Made by a program: the position numbers and the translations under genes. From Candidatus Omnitrophota bacterium (GTDB lineage: Bacteria > Omnitrophota > Gorgyraeia > JAFGHF01 > JAZDEE01): a stretch of DNA of 27,288 bases. The notes under the pieces were generated by a model. It saw only the letters and a program-made list of their open reading frames with translations, was not told where the DNA came from and did no database searches. Location: assembly GCA_043809065.1 (NCBI GenBank), contig JAZDEE010000102.1:1-27288 (forward strand), written 5' to 3'. Below, piece after piece: positions 14,643-27,288 of this stretch; the first letter of the stretch is position 1; every line of letters begins with the position of its first letter.

Positions 14643-14775
14643 AAATATGTTCCCAACGGACATAACAGATTAACGGACAGGAGCACCTGACTTCCGCAAC
14701 GGGACACCTAAACAACCGTCATACCGGCGAAAGCCGGTATCTAAGAAGTTACAGCTTACCTGGATTCCGGCTTCC

Positions 14776-14915
14776 CAGACTGTGTCAAAAGTACCTTTTT
14801 TGTCATTGTCCGGCTTGACCGGACAATCCAGAAAATATTTGTCGTCGGGGATGGATTCCCTGGTCAAGCCAGGAAATGACAAAATTCGTTATTTTGCCTG
14901 TTTTGACACAGTCTG
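14776..14915. mobile_element. 140-bp MITE-like insertion with perfect 15-bp terminal inverted repeats and a 3-bp target duplication
   Basis: CAGACTGTGTCAAAA (14776-14790) / TTTTGACACAGTCTG (14901-14915); TCC on both sides (14773-14775, 14916-14918); no transposase. Confidence 0.85.
14802..14880. repeat. Inner GTCATT...AATGAC double-hairpin palindrome carried inside the MITE
   Basis: gtcattgtccggcttgaccggacaatccag ... tggattccctggtcaagccaggaaatgac. Confidence 0.85.
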
Positions 14916-14944
14916 TCCGCCGGAATGACGAATTTTTCCCCGTA

Positions 14945-18383: not shown

Positions 18384-18408
18384 GGACAGGGGCAAGCCCT
18401 GTCCCTAC
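18384..18408 (-). repeat. GTAG-type REP-like hairpin
   Basis: Minus strand GTAG-GGACAGGG-CTTGC-CCCTGTCC; same CTTGC loop as the 7370 copy. Confidence 0.75.
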
Positions 18409-18432
18409 TGCTCTGTCACATAAATTATTGTT

Positions 18433-18578
18433 AAATTCGAAGCACGAAATCCGAAACAAATTCGAATTCTCCAATGCTCAAATGTTCAAAACAATATTCT
18501 TTAGGTATATGTTTGGGTCCTATGTATTTTGAGAATTTAAACATTGTTTCGGATTTCGATATTCGGATTTCGGATTTT
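18433..18578. repeat. Heptamer-periodic imperfect palindrome, copy B
   Basis: aaattcgaagcacgaaatccgaaacaaattcg... / ...ttgtttcggatttcgatattcggatttcggatttt; the loop shares ATATTCTTTAGG with copy A. Confidence 0.85.
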
Positions 18579-18606
18579 AAATTATAGAAATTAATGGGAC
18601 AATGCA

Positions 18607-19666
18607 CTACGGCATCTCGCTTAATTTAAAAACGCAATAGTCCTTGCATTTCAATCGTAAATAGGCATTTTCGTCTATCCCCATCTCACTATGAAATTTA
18701 TCAATAAAGGCCTGGGCGGCCAGAAAATGCCCATAAAGATTGGGATGCACTATATCCTCGGCAGCAATCTTAAGATTGTTGAATCCCGCCTGTTCAAATT
18801 TATCCACCATGTTCAAATATTTAATATCTAATTCTTCCAGAATGGCAATGACAGTTTCCCGCGCTTTTTTTTTGCCAGCCGCGATCGTATACAGCTTCAT
18901 CTAAGTGGGGATACAGGATGCAAAATAATAACGCTCCGTTTTTAGCGGCATACTCCTTAATTTTTGAAAAACCCTGTTTAACAATAGAGCTGTTCGCAAT
19001 CACTCCTTCAACCGAAGAATACTTTTTTATCCCAAACTGGGCTTTTTTAATTTTAAAATATCTATATACCGCCGAATATCTAAACAAAGCGGGATTATAT
19101 TCCCCCGCCGGTCCAAACAAGTTGTAAGCCATTTTCTTATCACGCGGGACAATCGTCATACAGGGCGTAAAATCATTCTCACAAAACCCAACTATTATTA
19201 TTTCAGGGGTCATTTTGATTCTTGTTTCCAAGTACAGCGCTTCTTGTAATGTATTATAGCCTCCTATCCCCGCGTTCCAGATTCGGTATGGTTCTTTCAG
19301 AAAAAATTCGAATGCCTTTTCCAAATATCTATACTGAAGCAAAGAATCACCAATTAAAAGGATGTCCTTTCCCTGTCCTGCCATATTTAAATACTTTTTC
19401 CCGTTCTGGCATCCGCAACAGCCGTCCGACGCAATCCAGGCTGGTCCAGGCACATATCCCAACTCGGAATCAGCAATCCATAAGTTATCTTTTATATGCC
19501 GATTAAAGTTAGGGTTGACGTCATCAAAAGTAAAATAGTGGCAGGCATTGTATTTACTCAGACAATATTCCAGAACTAACCAACATATAATTAGAGTGAC
19601 CAGCAGGATTGCCCAATTGGCCGCTATATTCAAAATCTTTTCACGAGCGCTAAAATTTTTCTTCAT
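18607..19666 (-). pseudogene. Membrane-anchored SGNH/GDSL hydrolase or O-acyltransferase, split by a frameshift at an A9 run (possibly phase-variable)
   Basis: ORF 18821-19666 has an N-terminal TM plus blocks I-III (LLIGDS, NAGIGGYN, GFCEND). ORF 18607-18900 has block V (EDIVHPNLYGH). Removing one A at 18865-18873 fuses them into 352 aa. Confidence 0.85.
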
Positions 19667-20885
19667 CTCTGGGGTTCTCGGTTAGCGGTTGGCGGTTAGC
19701 GGTTTTTGTAATTTTGTTATACGCTGACAATATAGAGGCTGCTGTCCGCTCCCAGGTATACTTATTCTCGATTCTCTGCCGGCTGAGCCGGCTTATTTTT
19801 TCCCTTAACGTTTCGTGCTTAAGCAATTTTAATATCCCCTCCGCTAAAGGATGCTGTTCCCCCGGTTTAACTAAAATGCCCACTCCTCCGACCATTTTTC
19901 TCACTTCACCCACGTTACTGGCCACAACCGGCTTACCGGAAGCCAGATATTCTACTATTTTCAGAGGACTCTTGCAGCGGGTTACCTGAGTGTCCCTGAA
20001 AGGCGCGACGCAAATGCTGGCCGCGGCAATATAACTGGGTATCTCCTGATGCGGCACAGCGCCGGTAAAAATTACTTTGTTCCCGATCCCTAAATCAGCG
20101 GCCAGCCGCTTTAAGGTTCCCTCCAGGAAGCCTTCTCCCGCCACCATAAAAGTCACCGCAGGGAACTCGTGTCCAACAATATTAGCCGCCCTTAAGAACA
20201 AATCCACATATTGCGCCCCGTGCAGCTGACCGACATAAAGAACCAGAGGCCCCCTAATGTCATATTTTTCCCGCACCCATCCGCCATATAATCCGGGTTT
20301 GAATCTTTGCAAATCCGCGCCTACCGGACTATCAAAGATGTACTCGTCTTTTACTCCGTATTGCCTGGTCAGGTCCTTTAAATGACTGCTGGCGCAGGAA
20401 ACGGAATCAGCCAGAACCGGCAGCCATCTTTCCAGTATCTGAAAAGACCTGCCAATAAACCGCGAATGCAGCCCCCGGCCGCAGGATTCATACCAGATTT
20501 TTTCTTCCCAGTCATCCCAGTCATAATGCAATGGTTTAGCGCTAAGATAGGCCGCAACTACCGCGGGAACAGCGGCATAATGATGGCACTTCTGAAAATG
20601 CACGACATCCGCCCAGCGGCACAACCTGGTTAAAACCAGGGTATTCACAATAAAAGAATACGGTGACGGCGTTCTGTCCAGGGTAATCAATTCCACTAAA
20701 GGTTCAGTCTGAGCTTTCTTTTCATGCATAGCTAAAGGAAAATAGCACAATTTAACCTTATGACCATTTCGGATAAATTCCCGGGCAATATTTTTTATTC
20801 TGATTGTCCAAGGCTCAGATGAATCGAACAAGTCATGCGGATGCACCATTAAAATATTCACGGTTTGCTTTTTCCTCCGCCCCAT
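19650..20885 (-). CDS. Glycosyltransferase family 4 (GT-B)
   Basis: VLYVGQL, VAGEG, VIFTGAVPHQEIPSYIAAA, SPLKIVEYLASGKPVVASNVGE. Confidence 0.93.
   Translation of the reverse strand: MGRRKKQTVNILMVHPHDLFDSSEPWTIRIKNIAREFIRNGHKVKLCYFPLAMHEKKAQTEPLVELITLDRTPSPYSFIVNTLVLTRLCRWADVVHFQKCHHYAAVPAVVAAYLSAKPLHYDWDDWEEKIWYESCGRGLHSRFIGRSFQILERWLPVLADSVSCASSHLKDLTRQYGVKDEYIFDSPVGADLQRFKPGLYGGWVREKYDIRGPLVLYVGQLHGAQYVDLFLRAANIVGHEFPAVTFMVAGEGFLEGTLKRLAADLGIGNKVIFTGAVPHQEIPSYIAAASICVAPFRDTQVTRCKSPLKIVEYLASGKPVVASNVGEVRKMVGGVGILVKPGEQHPLAEGILKLLKHETLREKISRLSRQRIENKYTWERTAASILSAYNKITKTANRQPLTENPRDEEKF
19679..19704. repeat. Heptamer microsatellite (CGGTTRG)n inside the GT4 3' end
   Basis: cggttag cggttgg cggttag cggtt, encoding TANRQPLT. 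Confidence 0.75.
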
Positions 20886-21904: not shown

Positions 21905-21934
21905 CGACAAGCCCTCATATAATATGTTAAAATT

Positions 21935-22061
21935 AAATCCGAAGCACGAAATTCGAAACTCGAAACAATTTTCAAATAAAATCCAAATAACCAAAACAAA
22001 ATTTATGAAAATTGAAACATTCGGATTTGTTTCGGATTTCGATATTCGGATTTCGAACTTT
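21935..22061. repeat. Heptamer-periodic imperfect palindrome, copy C
   Basis: aaatccgaagcacgaaattcgaaactcgaaacaa... / ...tttgtttcggatttcgatattcggatttcg. Confidence 0.85.
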
Positions 22062-22089
22062 CATATCTTTACCACTTTAAGAGACGCGC

Positions 22090-22578: not shown

Positions 22579-22679
22579 TTCCCCTCCTCTTTTTTCTGTC
22601 TCAAGCCCTTTCATCCAAATTTTTCTTTCCAACCGCCCCTCCTTTCCCGCACTGCGGTTCTGTAAAAAACATAAAATTT

Positions 22680-22854
22680 AATCACCACATCGAAATAACC
22701 AATAACCAAGAAACAATACCCAAACAATCACCAATAACCAAATTCAAATAACCAAACACGACGGGTTGTTTGATTATTGGTTATTGGGCTTTGGTTATTG
22801 TTTGGAATTTGTATCTTGGTCATTGGTTATTTTCTCACTGGTCATTGGAAATTT
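22680..22854. repeat. Heptamer-periodic palindrome, AATAACC/GGTTATT type (copy D)
   Basis: aataaccaataaccaagaaacaatacccaaacaatcaccaataacc... mirrored by ...ttattggttattgggctttggttattgtttggaatttgtatcttggtcattggttatt. Confidence 0.85.
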
Positions 22855-25800
22855 CAATCATGGCCTTCCTTCATAATTTTTTCATTATGCATTAAATTAT
22901 CGCATTCTTTCCGGCAGCCGATTTCTTTAAAATAAGCGTCTTCTTTAGACAAGTATTTCGCCTTGGCCCGGAATTCATTATATCGCGGGGAAAACCATAA
23001 GTTTTCAAACGAGTCCCGGTTAATATTACCCATTATCTTCTTTACCCCCCGGCAACAAGGCGCGACGCTGCCATCCGCCAATATCCGGGCAAAGGTCCAT
23101 CCCGCGTAACAAGGAATGCTGTCTATAACTGTCCGGTCATATTCTCCTTTGGCTAACCCTTCCGCTGGTTGAGACAGCCTTCTTAGAAATCCGGTAAAAA
23201 ACTCTAAACGCATATTGTCTTTTTTACTTCTCTCTTCTATCATTAAAGCGTCTTGGCGCAGTTGTTCCCGCTGGACACTATTCAGGAGAAATCTGTCGGT
23301 TTGCCCGGGCATAACATCCACCAGAGTAAAATAAAGCGCGTCCGCGCTGTATGACAAAGCAAACTCATACATATCCTGGATACCTTGAGCATTGATATTC
23401 ATAATTACGTTGGCCAGGGTCAGCCGCGGTTTGTCCCTTTTTATTTCCTTCAGGTAACGCAGATTATCGCATATCCGCGCGAAATAGCCGGGAGCTGCTC
23501 CCGGATGAACCGCGCAATATCCCCGGCTATCGGCCGCCCAGATACTGACGCATAATTCTTCCAGGCCTAAATTCACTAATCTCCGGATATCCTGCGGAGA
23601 AACCAGTCCAAAATTTGTAGTCAGCTCCACCAACAGCCCTTTTTTGCCGGCATATTCCATAATCTCCAGGAGGCCCTTGTGCATAAACGGTTCTCCTCCG
23701 CCGGTAAAACGGATTCTTTTTGTCCCCAGAGAAACCAAATCGTCGATTAGTTTGTATACTATATCTTTGGACAGCTCTTTCTGCAGCCATTCATGAGCGG
23801 ATTTTGTCTCTTTCAGAAAAGGAGAGTGCAGCCAACAGGCTACGCAGCGCAAATCGCATTTATTGGTCAGGTCAATGACTACCTGTTCCGGGCCGGTAAA
23901 AGCCCGGCGTCCGTGAACAATACCGGCGATTAACGGACTGCCGCGGTGATATTTCTGATATCCCTCTTTCCGGGTGCTCAGGCGCCGGACAATTTTAAGA
24001 TATTTAGCGGCCGTCTTAAGCAAGGCCCTCTCCGGAAGACTTAACATCGTCTTGCGGCTATGCATCCAGGTATTTCTGCCGATATCGTCGCAGCTTTTAT
24101 AACAGCCGGCTTCTTTGATTCCGGCATCGTTGCCGATAAGCCTAAAAAAAGGGTCGTTTTTTTGGTAAACCAGGGTCTTCTTACGGAAATTTGCCTGCCG
24201 GGAAGAATTCCATATCTCCGAAAACCTGTCCGAATATAATGACCCGGTAGGAATCCTATGCGCCTTTAAACAAGAATGCACTTCACCATTAGGGATAATC
24301 CGGGCAAAAAGCCAGCCGATATAACAAGGCATCCGGTCAATGATATTACGGTCATATTTGGCCTGCCGCGCGTCGGAAGATACTGAAATCCTGCGCAAAA
24401 ATTGGTCGAATTGAAAAATCAACACATTTTTGTCTTTCAATCTCCGGCAGTTATCCAGCCGGGATTCAATATTCCGGCACGATTTCCTTAACTCAGCAAG
24501 CTGTTCTTCATTCAACAGGAGAGCATCTGTGGCCCCGGGAATAGTATCCACTAAAGTAAACTCCACCGACTCCGACTTGGTTTCCTGGGCAAAATCGAGC
24601 ATTTGCTCTACCTCAAAATAATTCATATTAAAGAGGACATTGTAGAGTTTAATAAAAGGCTTGTTTTTTTTATGTGTATTCAGGTAAAGTAAATTATCTT
24701 TTAACCTGTAAAAATCTTCTTTTGTTCTGTTGCAGTGAGTCGCGACGTAAGTTTCTGCCCGCGCCGCCCAGGCGCTTACCGTAAGAAAATCCACTCCTAT
24801 ATCCACCAGGTAATCTAAACGTTCTTTATCCAGCAAGGTAAAGTTAGTATTCACGTGGCAGGTTAACCCTTTCTTCTTGCTGTATGCTAAAACATCCATA
24901 ATCTGCGGATGCATAAACGGTTCGCCGCTGCCGGAATAATAAATCTCCGCCGCCCCCATCCGGCGCAGTTCATCAAGCAGTTCCTTAACCATACCCAAAG
25001 GCAGGTATTGTTTTTTCTGCTCTTCGGACAATTTCTTTTCTTTTAACAGCGGCGAATTACACCAACAGGCAATACAGGCATTATTGCAATTATTAGTCAA
25101 ATCTATCTGCACGTGAAACGGGCCTTTATATCCGTATTCTCCATCGTAAATCCCCAGCATCTCTATATATCTGGCTTTAAAATTTTTTCGTAAACCGGAC
25201 AAAATTTTGGCCAGTGTAGGTTTTACCCCCCTTAAAGACACGCTCCTGCTGATCGCCGCCCAATAATTATGTTGGTTACGCTTTACTATAAACTTCGCCT
25301 GGGATCCTTCCGGAACAAAACTAAACGCCTCGATATGCGGGATATAGCCCCGGCTATACAAGCGCATATTATGTCTGCCCCTATTCAGCTCAATAGCGGC
25401 CTCCTTAAACCACTGGACATATTGGCTTGTCCATCCTCCCGTGCTGCTGCCCAAGGCGTTTTTCTTCAGCAATATCCCGTCAATATATATCTCCACGGGA
25501 CGAAACAGCCCGCTGGCATATTTAGCATAAAATACATATTTTTGATGCTCCGCCGCAAAAAACTCATATTCCGCCTGAGCCCAGCCCGCGCCTCCATCGA
25601 CAACTAAACCTTCCCCAAAATTGACGTCCCGCGCGTTCAAGTTTCCTGCTTTAAATTCCCGGGCTTTAATAAGAATGGCCCCTTCCGTCTTGCGGTCTCT
25701 TTTTTGTTCGTCCAGCCTTTGAAACAACTCTAAATTCATTCCCCGGTTATCGCAGCTTCGGACACAATTTATTTCCGCGAAACAGGCATTGTTTTTAGGC

Positions 25801-27134
25801 AGATTCCTGGCGTTAAATCTAAACTCTTGATACGCCGGGGAATTCCAGATCGCGAAGAAGGCCTCCCGGAATATATTTCCCAAAGAACTCCCGGAGGCCT
25901 TACAACAGGGAATCACATCGCCACTGGTGAGCACCCGCGCGTAATACCAGCCGATATAACAGGGAGAATGGATAATCTCCTGTTCGTAAATTCCTTTTTC
26001 TATATCAGGAGAAAGGCACCTGCGAATAAAAGAGCCAGCGCCCAAAATATTCATCAAGCGGACAGTCAATCTTCCGTCCGGTAAACAACGCGCGTTTTCC
26101 GCGCATCCTTTACATTGACTACTGGGAAAATTATATAAAAAAGCGCCCGGCCGCGTGCTCTGCGAGGGGTTGCCCGCTGAGCCGGCAATGATTTCATTTT
26201 CGATACGATAACCCTTTGGGCATACTAAAGCAGCGCAGGCCTTTTCTACTTTAAACCCGAGGATCGCGTTTTTCCAAATCTTACCAATACCGGCAATTTC
26301 CTCCGCGGAAAATTCAGTTAAAGGCGTATCGGAAGCAAACCCAAAGGAAACCATATCCTGCCGTTTTTGCAGCGTTTGGAATTGGCCAAGGACTTCGTTT
26401 AAATTGGCAGCGCTAAGCGCTAAATGATCGGTTTTACCCGGTATTGTATCTATAATTTGAAACTCCAGGGAATCCGCGTCGGCCTCTTTAGCGAATTCCG
26501 CCATTTCTTCGATATGGTTATAGTTACCGCGGCAAACCACATTGTAGATTTTCAAGTGCGGCAGACAAGAATGTTGTTTATTTTTATAAAAAACCAATCC
26601 GGCTAAATTAGCTTTTATATTTTCAAAATCTTCCTTTTGCTTGCCCGGATGCGTATCGCTATACCCCTGAGCGCTGCCTGCCCACATACTAACGGTAAGC
26701 AAATCTACCTTATATTCAAGGATAAACCGCGCCATTTCCTCGTTAATCAGGGCGGCGTTGGTAATGATGGTCAAATACATCTGCCGCTCCTTGATTGCGG
26801 CGATAACTTCTCTTATGGCCGGATATAAGAATGGTTCTCCGGATCCCGAAAGAATGATTTCCCGTGTTCCCCCTTTGTGCAATTCTCCAATAAGCTTCTT
26901 TACTAATTCTAAAGGAAGCTCTTTTTTCCCCCGAGGGAAAGCCTGTTTGCTGTCCACAAGCGGAGAATGCACCCAGCAGCCAATGCAGGAGTTATTACAT
27001 CTGTCGGTCAAATCTATCTGCACAGTATGCGGACCGCAAAATGCCTGCCGGCCATTCTCTATGCCCTTAAAAATCTTCGGCCAAATATCCGCGGTTGGCG
27101 GTTGGCGGTTGGCGGTTGGCGGTTTAGGATTCAT
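22854..27134 (-). CDS. 1426-aa protein: three tandem radical SAM + SPASM-like units with an internal CBM6/35-like domain
   Basis: CxxxCxxC at aa 46 (CNNSCIGC), 683 (CNNACIAC) and 1093 (CDLRCVAC), each followed by a G[SG]GEPF motif and a PCY[IA]GW...G-x-V-x-x-C...C-x3-CD region. A jelly-roll-like segment at about aa 486-606 contains AEYEF, YAS, RPVEIYIDG, TGGW, GRH, PHIE. Confidence 0.92.
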   Translation of the reverse strand: MNPKPPTANRQPPTADIWPKIFKGIENGRQAFCGPHTVQIDLTDRCNNSCIGCWVHSPLVDSKQAFPRGKKELPLELVKKLIGELHKGGTREIILSGSGEPFLYPAIREVIAAIKERQMYLTIITNAALINEEMARFILEYKVDLLTVSMWAGSAQGYSDTHPGKQKEDFENIKANLAGLVFYKNKQHSCLPHLKIYNVVCRGNYNHIEEMAEFAKEADADSLEFQIIDTIPGKTDHLALSAANLNEVLGQFQTLQKRQDMVSFGFASDTPLTEFSAEEIAGIGKIWKNAILGFKVEKACAALVCPKGYRIENEIIAGSAGNPSQSTRPGAFLYNFPSSQCKGCAENARCLPDGRLTVRLMNILGAGSFIRRCLSPDIEKGIYEQEIIHSPCYIGWYYARVLTSGDVIPCCKASGSSLGNIFREAFFAIWNSPAYQEFRFNARNLPKNNACFAEINCVRSCDNRGMNLELFQRLDEQKRDRKTEGAILIKAREFKAGNLNARDVNFGEGLVVDGGAGWAQAEYEFFAAEHQKYVFYAKYASGLFRPVEIYIDGILLKKNALGSSTGGWTSQYVQWFKEAAIELNRGRHNMRLYSRGYIPHIEAFSFVPEGSQAKFIVKRNQHNYWAAISRSVSLRGVKPTLAKILSGLRKNFKARYIEMLGIYDGEYGYKGPFHVQIDLTNNCNNACIACWCNSPLLKEKKLSEEQKKQYLPLGMVKELLDELRRMGAAEIYYSGSGEPFMHPQIMDVLAYSKKKGLTCHVNTNFTLLDKERLDYLVDIGVDFLTVSAWAARAETYVATHCNRTKEDFYRLKDNLLYLNTHKKNKPFIKLYNVLFNMNYFEVEQMLDFAQETKSESVEFTLVDTIPGATDALLLNEEQLAELRKSCRNIESRLDNCRRLKDKNVLIFQFDQFLRRISVSSDARQAKYDRNIIDRMPCYIGWLFARIIPNGEVHSCLKAHRIPTGSLYSDRFSEIWNSSRQANFRKKTLVYQKNDPFFRLIGNDAGIKEAGCYKSCDDIGRNTWMHSRKTMLSLPERALLKTAAKYLKIVRRLSTRKEGYQKYHRGSPLIAGIVHGRRAFTGPEQVVIDLTNKCDLRCVACWLHSPFLKETKSAHEWLQKELSKDIVYKLIDDLVSLGTKRIRFTGGGEPFMHKGLLEIMEYAGKKGLLVELTTNFGLVSPQDIRRLVNLGLEELCVSIWAADSRGYCAVHPGAAPGYFARICDNLRYLKEIKRDKPRLTLANVIMNINAQGIQDMYEFALSYSADALYFTLVDVMPGQTDRFLLNSVQREQLRQDALMIEERSKKDNMRLEFFTGFLRRLSQPAEGLAKGEYDRTVIDSIPCYAGWTFARILADGSVAPCCRGVKKIMGNINRDSFENLWFSPRYNEFRAKAKYLSKEDAYFKEIGCRKECDNLMHNEKIMKEGHD
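27090..27124. repeat. Heptamer microsatellite (GGCGGTT) x5 just inside the start of the giant radical SAM gene
   Basis: cgcggtt ggcggtt ggcggtt ggcggtt ggcggtt; on the coding strand it begins 10 nt after the A of the ATG at 27134. Confidence 0.9.
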
Positions 27135-27288
27135 TATACTCTGCTTCCTATGTACCTGATATTATCTATGGAATACTTTGCTGTCTTTTTTAAAGCTGCG
27201 GCAGGGCCTGAATGCCGCCAACAATAAAAGAAGTGGTGGAGATTACCCTTTATTCCTCTTTGCTTATTCTGGTGCCGGGCCCACCTGC
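27134..27288 (-). CDS. 3' end of an upstream gene (partial, unknown product)
   Basis: Open frame from the window edge (RWARHQNK...KYSIDNIRYIGSRV) ending in a TAA that overlaps the next ATG (TAATG coupling). Confidence 0.5.
   Translation of the reverse strand, partial: RWARHQNKQRGIKGNLHHFFYCWRHSGPAAALKKTAKYSIDNIRYIGSRV

What the first reader, a model, noticed from the sequence alone, without database searches (positions are those of the whole stretch)
27090..27124. Heptamer microsatellite placed as an ON/OFF switch for the 4.3-kb gene
Seen: five tandem 7-bp units lie just inside the start codon, which is translationally coupled (TAATG), and no in-frame Met follows before the first radical SAM motif. 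Gaining or losing one or two units would frameshift the whole gene; three units would preserve it. Established: heptamer repeats phase-vary glycosylation genes such as Neisseria pglE. Inference: the radical glycan tailoring is phase-variable.
Basis: partly seen in the sequence, partly recalled or inferred. Interest (0 to 1): 0.65.

Follow-up and report, generated by a model that had tools for sequence, protein, structure and literature searches.

The report
Translated heptamer repeat at gene start
A perfect five-unit 7-base repeat really sits just after the start codon of a large radical SAM enzyme gene in an uncultured Omnitrophota bacterium, but it looks like one more tolerated, translated copy of a repeat family that litters this genome (even housekeeping genes), and nothing yet shows it works as an on/off switch.

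Summary
Observation confirmed. Window 27091-27124 is a perfect period-7 tract of 4.9 units. On the minus strand it reads (CAACCGC)n and fills codons 4-15 of a 1426-aa triple radical SAM/SPASM gene. Orthologues start at the same stop/start overlap, so the ATG at 27134 is the true start. One or two units more or less leave 17-29-aa stubs with no restart; three units keep the frame.

The switch reading has only this mechanical support. The MAG is Omnitrophota, 68% complete. Period 7 dominates its tandem repeats: 156 arrays, 29 of them of the xAACCGC family. These arrays form intergenic hairpins. They also lie in frame, always sense strand, in ten genes, including PFOR alpha, PyrK, a Kdo transferase and the GT4 tail in this window. 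About 90 homologue N-termini lack the repeat peptide, so it is a lineage-specific 10-codon insertion in a length-tolerant tail. The only second copy (contig C64, 93% identical) has the same five units plus one substitution. No reads or closer relatives could be reached.

Best reading: a tolerated, translated array, slip-prone in principle, not a demonstrated contingency locus. The closest architecture is E. coli neuO. This scan has noted the same pattern before: 61 notes on at least 48 genomes matched heptamer/phase-variation/Omnitrophota.

The parts
27091..27124 (-). Perfect heptanucleotide array, (CAACCGC)n on the coding strand, 4.9 units, codons 4-15 of the gene, translated as KPPTANRQPPTA
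27132..27136 (-). TAATG stop/start overlap: TAA of the upstream B12-binding radical SAM gene and ATG of the triple radical SAM gene
   Evidence: Orthologues in G008 and G010 have an ATGA overlap at the same place.
22854..27134 (-). 1426-aa protein with three radical SAM + SPASM units, a family conserved in Omnitrophota (about 70 full-length homologues)
27134..27288 (-). 3' end (last 50 codons) of the upstream 501-aa B12-binding radical SAM gene, cut by the contig end
19679..19704 (-). Second array of the same xAACCGC family in this locus. It is translated as KTANRQPLTE in the C-terminal tail of the GT4 glycosyltransferase and ends about 12 nt before the next gene's ATG.

Best explanation
The tract is a lineage-specific, in-frame member of a genome-wide family of heptanucleotide arrays (unit xAACCGC). 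Whatever process makes and spreads period-7 arrays in this Omnitrophota genome put about 30 extra bases just inside the 5' end of the gene. They sit in an N-terminal tail that varies in length among homologues and precedes the conserved core. The array is translated into a hydrophilic Pro/Thr/Ala/Asn/Arg/Gln peptide that the enzyme tolerates, and selection keeps its length in frame. Shown: the array, the true start, the insertion relative to homologues, the genome-wide family, in-frame copies in housekeeping genes, and an identical unit number in a 93%-identical second copy. Inferred: that the array is neutral or nearly so, and that slippage, though physically possible, is not used as a regulatory switch.
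For: 1. Period 7 dominates the genome's tandem repeats. There are 19 perfect arrays of at least 3 copies, against 0-2 for other periods. TRF finds 156 period-7 arrays, 102 with at least 3 copies, against 10 such for period 6.
2. The xAACCGC family has 29 arrays. Some form intergenic hairpins (C95, C171, C196, C162, C32). The rest lie in frame inside genes.
3. The in-frame hosts include PFOR alpha, where the array lies in the interdomain linker, and PyrK, where it is a 9-residue insertion relative to 5ksw_B. Others are a radical SAM gene, a Kdo transferase, a weak two-copy array in GMD, a pseudopilin leader and the GT4 tail. In all ten genes AACCGC is on the sense strand.
4. About 90 homologue N-termini lack the peptide. 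The distance from Met to the first Cys is 29-36 residues in most and at most 44, against 45 here. The orthologues open MRKPDIW and MRKNLNIW.
5. Contig C64 is 93% identical over 468 nt without gaps. It has the same five units with one substitution.
6. MacGregor 2015 describes the same habit for TAACTGA heptamers: in-ORF copies sit at the very start or end of proteins (PMC4679880).
Against: The tract is perfectly pure, which fits recent or ongoing slippage. It exceeds the 3-unit cut-off used to call phase-variable 6- to 9-mers in Neisseria (PMC7371114). It lies where a frameshift kills the whole 4.3-kb gene, and the locus could be surface-glycan related. One diverged copy with the same length is weak evidence, because selection for the ON state would also give it.
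Confidence: 0.6

Rival explanations
1. True contingency locus, built like neuO. Slipped-strand mispairing changes the unit number at high frequency. The triple radical SAM enzyme, and whatever it modifies, is made only when the number is 2, 5, 8 and so on.
For: A perfect 4.9-unit heptamer lies 10 nt after a validated start codon. One or two units more or less give 17-29-aa stubs with no restart. The architecture matches neuO: a heptanucleotide 2 nt after the start, ON in one length class of three, translated as heptads (PMC3046976). It also matches pglE. Neighbours are GT4, NPCBM and ManC genes.
Against: No variation was seen: the 93%-identical copy has the same number of units. Arrays of the same family sit in housekeeping genes that should not be switched. 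No gene split at an array was found in this genome. At 5 units the tract is short compared with the 2-93 copies recorded for neuO.
Confidence: 0.2
2. Functional element that is not a switch. Either the C/A-rich array on the mRNA binds a post-transcriptional regulator or eases initiation of this coupled gene, or the PPTANRQ peptide is a useful flexible N-terminal extension, as NeuO heptads raise activity.
For: MacGregor proposed regulator binding for heptamer repeats next to start codons (PMC4679880). NeuO activity rises with the number of heptads. Other arrays in this genome lie right at gene starts.
Against: Predicted accessibility of the SD/AUG region is the same with 1 to 8 units and with a shuffled tract: 0.46-0.49 against 0.49 +/- 0.03. 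The peptide is absent from all homologues, so it is not needed for the enzyme. The same peptide occurs in unrelated proteins.
Confidence: 0.12
3. Artefact or wrong gene model: the tract is an assembly error near a contig end, or the real start lies downstream, so the tract is untranslated.
For: The tract lies 164 nt from the contig end, and the MAG is fragmented into 213 contigs.
Against: An independently assembled contig, C64, carries the same tract in the same context. Orthologues start at the same overlap. No canonical start exists downstream before the conserved strand.
Confidence: 0.03

Closest known systems
neuO poly-psi motif of E. coli K1 prophage CUS-3 (heptanucleotide AAGACTC VNTR in the 5' coding region)
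   Same: A heptanucleotide tandem repeat lies a few bases after the start codon. It is read through as a heptad peptide when in frame. Only one of three length classes gives the full protein, and the N-terminal extension is dispensable for the fold (PMC3046976).
   Different: neuO has 2-93 copies and documented high-frequency switching. Here there are 5 units and no variation has been observed. The enzyme family is unrelated (radical SAM/SPASM, not an LbH acetyltransferase). The tract here starts 10 nt after the ATG, not 2 nt. It belongs to a genome-wide family also found in housekeeping genes.
Neisseria pglE (CAACAAA heptanucleotide) and other simple-sequence contingency loci
   Same: A heptamer lies in the coding region of a gene in a putative glycan locus, and it exceeds the PhasomeIt cut-off of 3 units for 6- to 9-mers (PMC7371114, PMC7157529).
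   Different: pglE varies among isolates, and its phasotypes are tied to glycan phenotype. None of that is shown here. In Neisseria such repeats concentrate in surface genes, whereas here they are also in PFOR alpha and PyrK.
Genome-wide heptamer repeat families: TAACTGA repeats of Beggiatoaceae, Cyanobacteria and Bacteroidetes (MacGregor 2015), and cyanobacterial STRR heptamers
   Same: Period-7 direct repeats are strongly over-represented and mostly intergenic and near gene starts. A minority is translated at the very beginning or end of proteins. Their origin is unknown and their phylogenetic distribution is patchy (PMC4679880). That STRR heptamers are of this kind is from my own knowledge.
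   Different: The unit sequence differs (xAACCGC and others, not TAACTGA). Arrays here often pair into hairpins and also enter internal loops of enzymes. The phylum differs (Omnitrophota), and I found no paper on it.

Membership tests
Simple-sequence contingency locus (phase variation by slipped-strand mispairing) | Uninterrupted tandem repeat above the length used to predict mutability (3 or more units for 6- to 9-mers in PhasomeIt) | tested here: met
   4.9 perfect units; cut-off from PMC7371114.
Simple-sequence contingency locus (phase variation by slipped-strand mispairing) | Unit length not divisible by three, and tract between the true start and the functional domain, so that a one-unit change abolishes the product | tested here: met
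   Start validated by orthologues. Simulated changes of 1 or 2 units give 17-29-aa stubs.
Simple-sequence contingency locus (phase variation by slipped-strand mispairing) | Repeat number differs among reads, clones or close strains | tested here: inconclusive
   Only one comparator exists: C64, 93% identical, with the same 5 units and one substitution. No other copy is in the protein collection or in JGI metagenomes. Reads were not available.
Simple-sequence contingency locus (phase variation by slipped-strand mispairing) | Repeats concentrate in genes where switching is useful (surface or modification genes), not in housekeeping genes | tested here: not met
   The same unit family lies in frame in PFOR alpha, PyrK, Kdo transferase and GMD.
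Simple-sequence contingency locus (phase variation by slipped-strand mispairing) | Reversible ON/OFF expression linked to repeat number | not testable with these tools
   Needs cultures, reporters or time-series reads.
neuO-type translated heptanucleotide VNTR | Heptanucleotide array directly after the start codon, translated as heptads when in frame | tested here: met
   The array spans nt +11 to +44 and is read as PPTANRQ heptads. neuO is described in PMC3046976.
neuO-type translated heptanucleotide VNTR | Wide natural range of copy number and a dose effect of heptads on activity | not testable with these tools
   No population data and no enzyme assay.
Genome-wide heptamer array family (kind of STRR / TAACTGA repeats) | Period-7 direct repeats strongly over-represented against other periods in the same genome | tested here: met
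   19 perfect arrays of at least 3 copies against 0-2 for other periods. By TRF with at least 3 copies, 102 period-7 arrays against 10 for period 6 and 30 for period 8.
Genome-wide heptamer array family (kind of STRR / TAACTGA repeats) | The same unit recurs at many unlinked loci, mostly intergenic, with translated copies at protein ends or loops | tested here: met
   29 xAACCGC arrays on 20 contigs.
Genome-wide heptamer array family (kind of STRR / TAACTGA repeats) | Unit identical to a described family (TAACTGA, or the STRR heptamers) | tested here: not met
   The unit is xAACCGC. It works like those families but is not a member by sequence.

The most novel reading that the evidence does not exclude
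The array is a working neuO-like mutational switch in a free-living, uncultured Omnitrophota bacterium. It would turn a three-unit radical SAM/SPASM enzyme of a glycan or peptide modification locus on and off. It would be one visible case of a phylum-wide, undescribed use of sense-strand heptamer arrays as both building material for protein tails and contingency sites.
Probability: 0.15. Interest if true: 0.6.

Novelty: new member of a known kind. Interest (0 to 1): 0.35.

Why it matters
If the tract switched, it would extend simple-sequence phase variation from host-associated pathogens to an environmental candidate phylum, and to radical SAM chemistry.

As it stands, its value lies in context. 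It shows that in this genome a heptamer array in a gene is not evidence of a switch, because the same arrays are translated inside core metabolic enzymes. This guards against over-calling 'phasomes' in metagenome-assembled genomes.

The broader habit is period-7 arrays that form intergenic hairpins and enter coding regions only in the sense orientation. I found no published description of it for Omnitrophota, and it is the more interesting question. This scan has already noted it on many other genomes.

Tried and rejected
1. Closer relatives for counting units. A GTDB contig scan with the N-terminal domain found nothing. The JGI metagenome scan gave at best 52% identity.
2. RNA accessibility idea. 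Partition-function folding with 1-8 units and with shuffled tracts showed no effect on the SD/AUG region. Rejected as unsupported.
3. The TATAAT that overlaps the ATG as an internal promoter. No -35 partner was found and no promoter-like site was called.
4. Hairpin partner for the array. There is none within 800 nt, so this array is solo, unlike the intergenic paired arrays.
5. Scan for genes split by a frameshift at any period-7 array. The nine candidates all look like ordinary neighbouring genes with starts right after the array.
6. Using the MAG's 23 pairs of 85-98%-identical contig stretches to measure array indel rates. Only this locus offers an xAACCGC array in such a pair, too few for a rate.

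Full report
**The observation**

The window is the whole of contig C102 of a 1.36-Mb, 213-contig genome bin that is 68% complete. Database names of homologous proteins place it in Candidatus Omnitrophota. Tandem Repeats Finder reports 27091-27124 as period 7, 4.9 copies, 100% matches. On the minus strand the sequence reads ATG AAT CCT AAA CCG CCA ACC and onward, so the tract runs from nucleotide +11 to +44 of ORF 22854..27134(-). It is translated as KPPTANRQPPTA.

The ORF encodes 1426 residues with three radical SAM domains and three SPASM domains. The frame upstream of the ATG is open to the contig end and stops with a TAA that shares its last A with the ATG. Contig C64 carries the complete upstream gene. 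It is a 501-aa B12-binding radical SAM protein that ends in the same TAATG.

**Is the ATG the real start?**

Two orthologues from the same order begin at an ATGA stop/start overlap with the same upstream gene. They open MRKPDIW... and MRKNLNIW..., against MNPKP[PTANRQPPTA]DIW... here.

In 62 full-length and 18 partial homologues, the distance from Met1 to the first Cys of CxxxCxxC is mostly 29-36 residues and never above 44. Here it is 45. None of them carries the repeat peptide.

In Kaelpia genomes the upstream gene and this gene are fused into one protein of about 1917 aa. The region where the array sits is therefore a linker-like stretch that tolerates length changes. The array is a lineage-specific insertion of about ten codons downstream of a conserved start.

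**Mechanics**

I rebuilt the locus with 1 to 9 units. Changes of -2, -1, +1 and +2 units give products of 17, 22, 24 and 29 residues, with no ATG, GTG or TTG in the enzyme frame upstream of the conserved core. Changes of -3 and +3 units keep the frame. The tract passes the 3-unit threshold used for 6- to 9-mers in meningococcal phasome work (PMC7371114). pglE is indeed controlled by a heptanucleotide (PMC7157529).

The best architectural match is neuO. It has an AAGACTC array two bases after the start codon, with 2-93 copies. [quoted passage not shown]

**Context changes the reading**

Period 7 is by far the commonest tandem-repeat period in this genome. There are 19 perfect arrays of at least three copies, against 0-2 for each other period from 5 to 15. 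TRF finds 156 period-7 arrays, 102 of them with at least three copies, against 10 such arrays for period 6.

Several intergenic stretches of the window hold heptamer arrays: 3602-3862, 18403-18610, 21913-22077 and 22673-22832. They belong to dispersed elements with copies on dozens of contigs.

The unit family of the finding, xAACCGC, has 29 arrays. Some are paired in inverted orientation and form intergenic hairpins (C95, C171, C196, C162, C32). The others lie in frame inside genes, as follows.

| Gene (contig) | Where the array lies |
|---|---|
| Pyruvate/2-oxoacid:ferredoxin oxidoreductase alpha subunit (C114) | start of the variable linker between domains I and II |
| PyrK-type electron-transfer subunit (C67) | EPQTANRKPQTA, a nine-residue insertion relative to structure 5ksw_B |
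| Radical SAM gene (C110) | internal |
| Kdo transferase (C115) | internal |
| GDP-mannose dehydratase-like gene (C10) | internal; a weak, two-copy array |
| Pseudopilin (C89) | leader peptide |
| Secreted repeat protein (C90) | its roughly 65-aa modules carry 0, about 5 or about 10 units |
| GT4 gene of this window (19679-19704) | C-terminal tail |

In all ten genes that carry such an array (these eight, the large ORF on C143 and the gene of the finding) the AACCGC strand is the sense strand. The arrays are then read as Pro/Thr/Ala/Asn/Arg/Gln-rich peptides. Three of the four reverse-strand variants would also be free of stops, so this is a real orientation bias.

A genome that tolerates these arrays inside core enzymes does not use them specifically as switches. 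This matches what MacGregor described for TAACTGA heptamers: in-ORF copies survive at the periphery of proteins (PMC4679880).

**Variation**

The only second copy available is the 3' end of contig C64. It aligns to the window end over 468 nt at 93% identity without a gap. It carries the same five units with one C-to-T change in the second unit.

The bin holds 23 such pairs of 85-98%-identical stretches. C64 is therefore either a co-binned sister population or a recent paralogue. Contig C63 looks like the true upstream neighbour of the window.

Thirty-three substitutions with no length change argue for stasis, but the argument is mild. Selection for the ON state would give the same picture, and it is a single comparison.

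I could reach no other copy of this N-terminus, as listed under what was tried. A scan for genes split at arrays found nothing convincing.

**Other ideas tested**

- The array does not change the predicted accessibility of the ribosome-binding region.
- The TATAAT that overlaps the start has no -35 partner.
- The array has no inverted partner nearby.

**Distribution**

Four-unit xAACCGC arrays occur in 6 of 301 sampled genomes of the class, and in none of ten same-order genomes. There they are mostly intergenic hairpins. Five-unit arrays occur in more than 120 stretches from many phyla. The unit is therefore not private to this lineage.

No paper in the library pairs Omnitrophota or Omnitrophica with heptamer or heptanucleotide. 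Notes of this scan record the same pattern on other genomes: 61 notes on at least 48 genomes matched the words heptamer, repeat, phase variation and Omnitrophota, and the eight shown describe it in Omnitrophota. Most of those were judged stable translated arrays. One reported unit loss in natural populations. These are unchecked leads. My conclusion rests on the tests above.

**Verdict**

The most likely nature of the tract is a tolerated, translated member of a genome-wide heptamer array family sitting in a permissive N-terminal tail (0.6). A working neuO-like switch remains possible (0.2) and is cheap to test from reads. The find is a new member of a known kind and of moderate interest.

Noticed in passing
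L018 about 3850-3855 (G010:C20): The orthologue in a same-order genome has TGA in place of the second Cys codon of the first CxxxCxxC motif (CNNT*IGCW). This could be a pseudogene, a sequencing error or a recoded codon.
   Followed up: no
L002 (G000:C90) 1-1857, minus strand: A 619-aa secreted-looking protein without Pfam hits is made of roughly 65-aa modules. Their linkers (SSANREPRTANRDQ and the like) are encoded by xAACCGC heptamer arrays of 0, about 5 or about 10 units. This shows that array length changes inside coding sequence over evolutionary time.
   Followed up: partly
window 3602-3862, 14772-14930, 18403-18610, 21913-22077, 22673-22832: Intergenic elements of 130-260 nt, most of them built from 7-nt periodic units, have copies at 70-98% identity on dozens of other contigs of the bin. 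They form a very abundant dispersed repeat family for a genome this small.
   Followed up: partly
L001 (C64), L051 (C63) and window 26821-27288: The bin holds a second copy of this locus at about 92% identity (C64). C63 carries two copies of the 501-aa B12-binding radical SAM gene. In all, 23 contig pairs share stretches of at least 300 nt at 85-98% identity. The cause is either a co-binned sister population or recent duplications, and it probably explains the contig break 154 nt upstream of the ATG.
   Followed up: partly
L017 2919-8672 (G039:C24); proteins P0063-P0065: In Candidatus Kaelpia the upstream B12-binding radical SAM gene and the triple radical SAM/SPASM gene are fused into one protein of about 1917 aa. 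The two products therefore very likely work together.
   Followed up: no
L048 (G000:C89) about 265-320: A pseudopilin gene has a 14-nt-period array (alternating xAACCG units) in its leader peptide, MKLNSQAQTDNRKPITATGR, ahead of AFTLIE. This is a second gene in the genome with an array just after the start codon.
   Followed up: partly
G000 contigs C114, C67, C110, C10, C115, C143, C90, C89, C102: In all ten genes that carry an in-frame xAACCGC array, the array is on the sense strand, although most reverse-strand variants are also free of stop codons. The cause could be selection on the encoded peptide or a strand-specific origin.
   Followed up: partly
Genome-contig loci L052-L131: Arrays of five or more xAACCGC units occur in over 120 stretches from many phyla, including Methylotuvimicrobium, Steroidobacteraceae, Streptomyces, Acidobacteriota and Planctomycetota. 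Their context was not examined.
   Followed up: no
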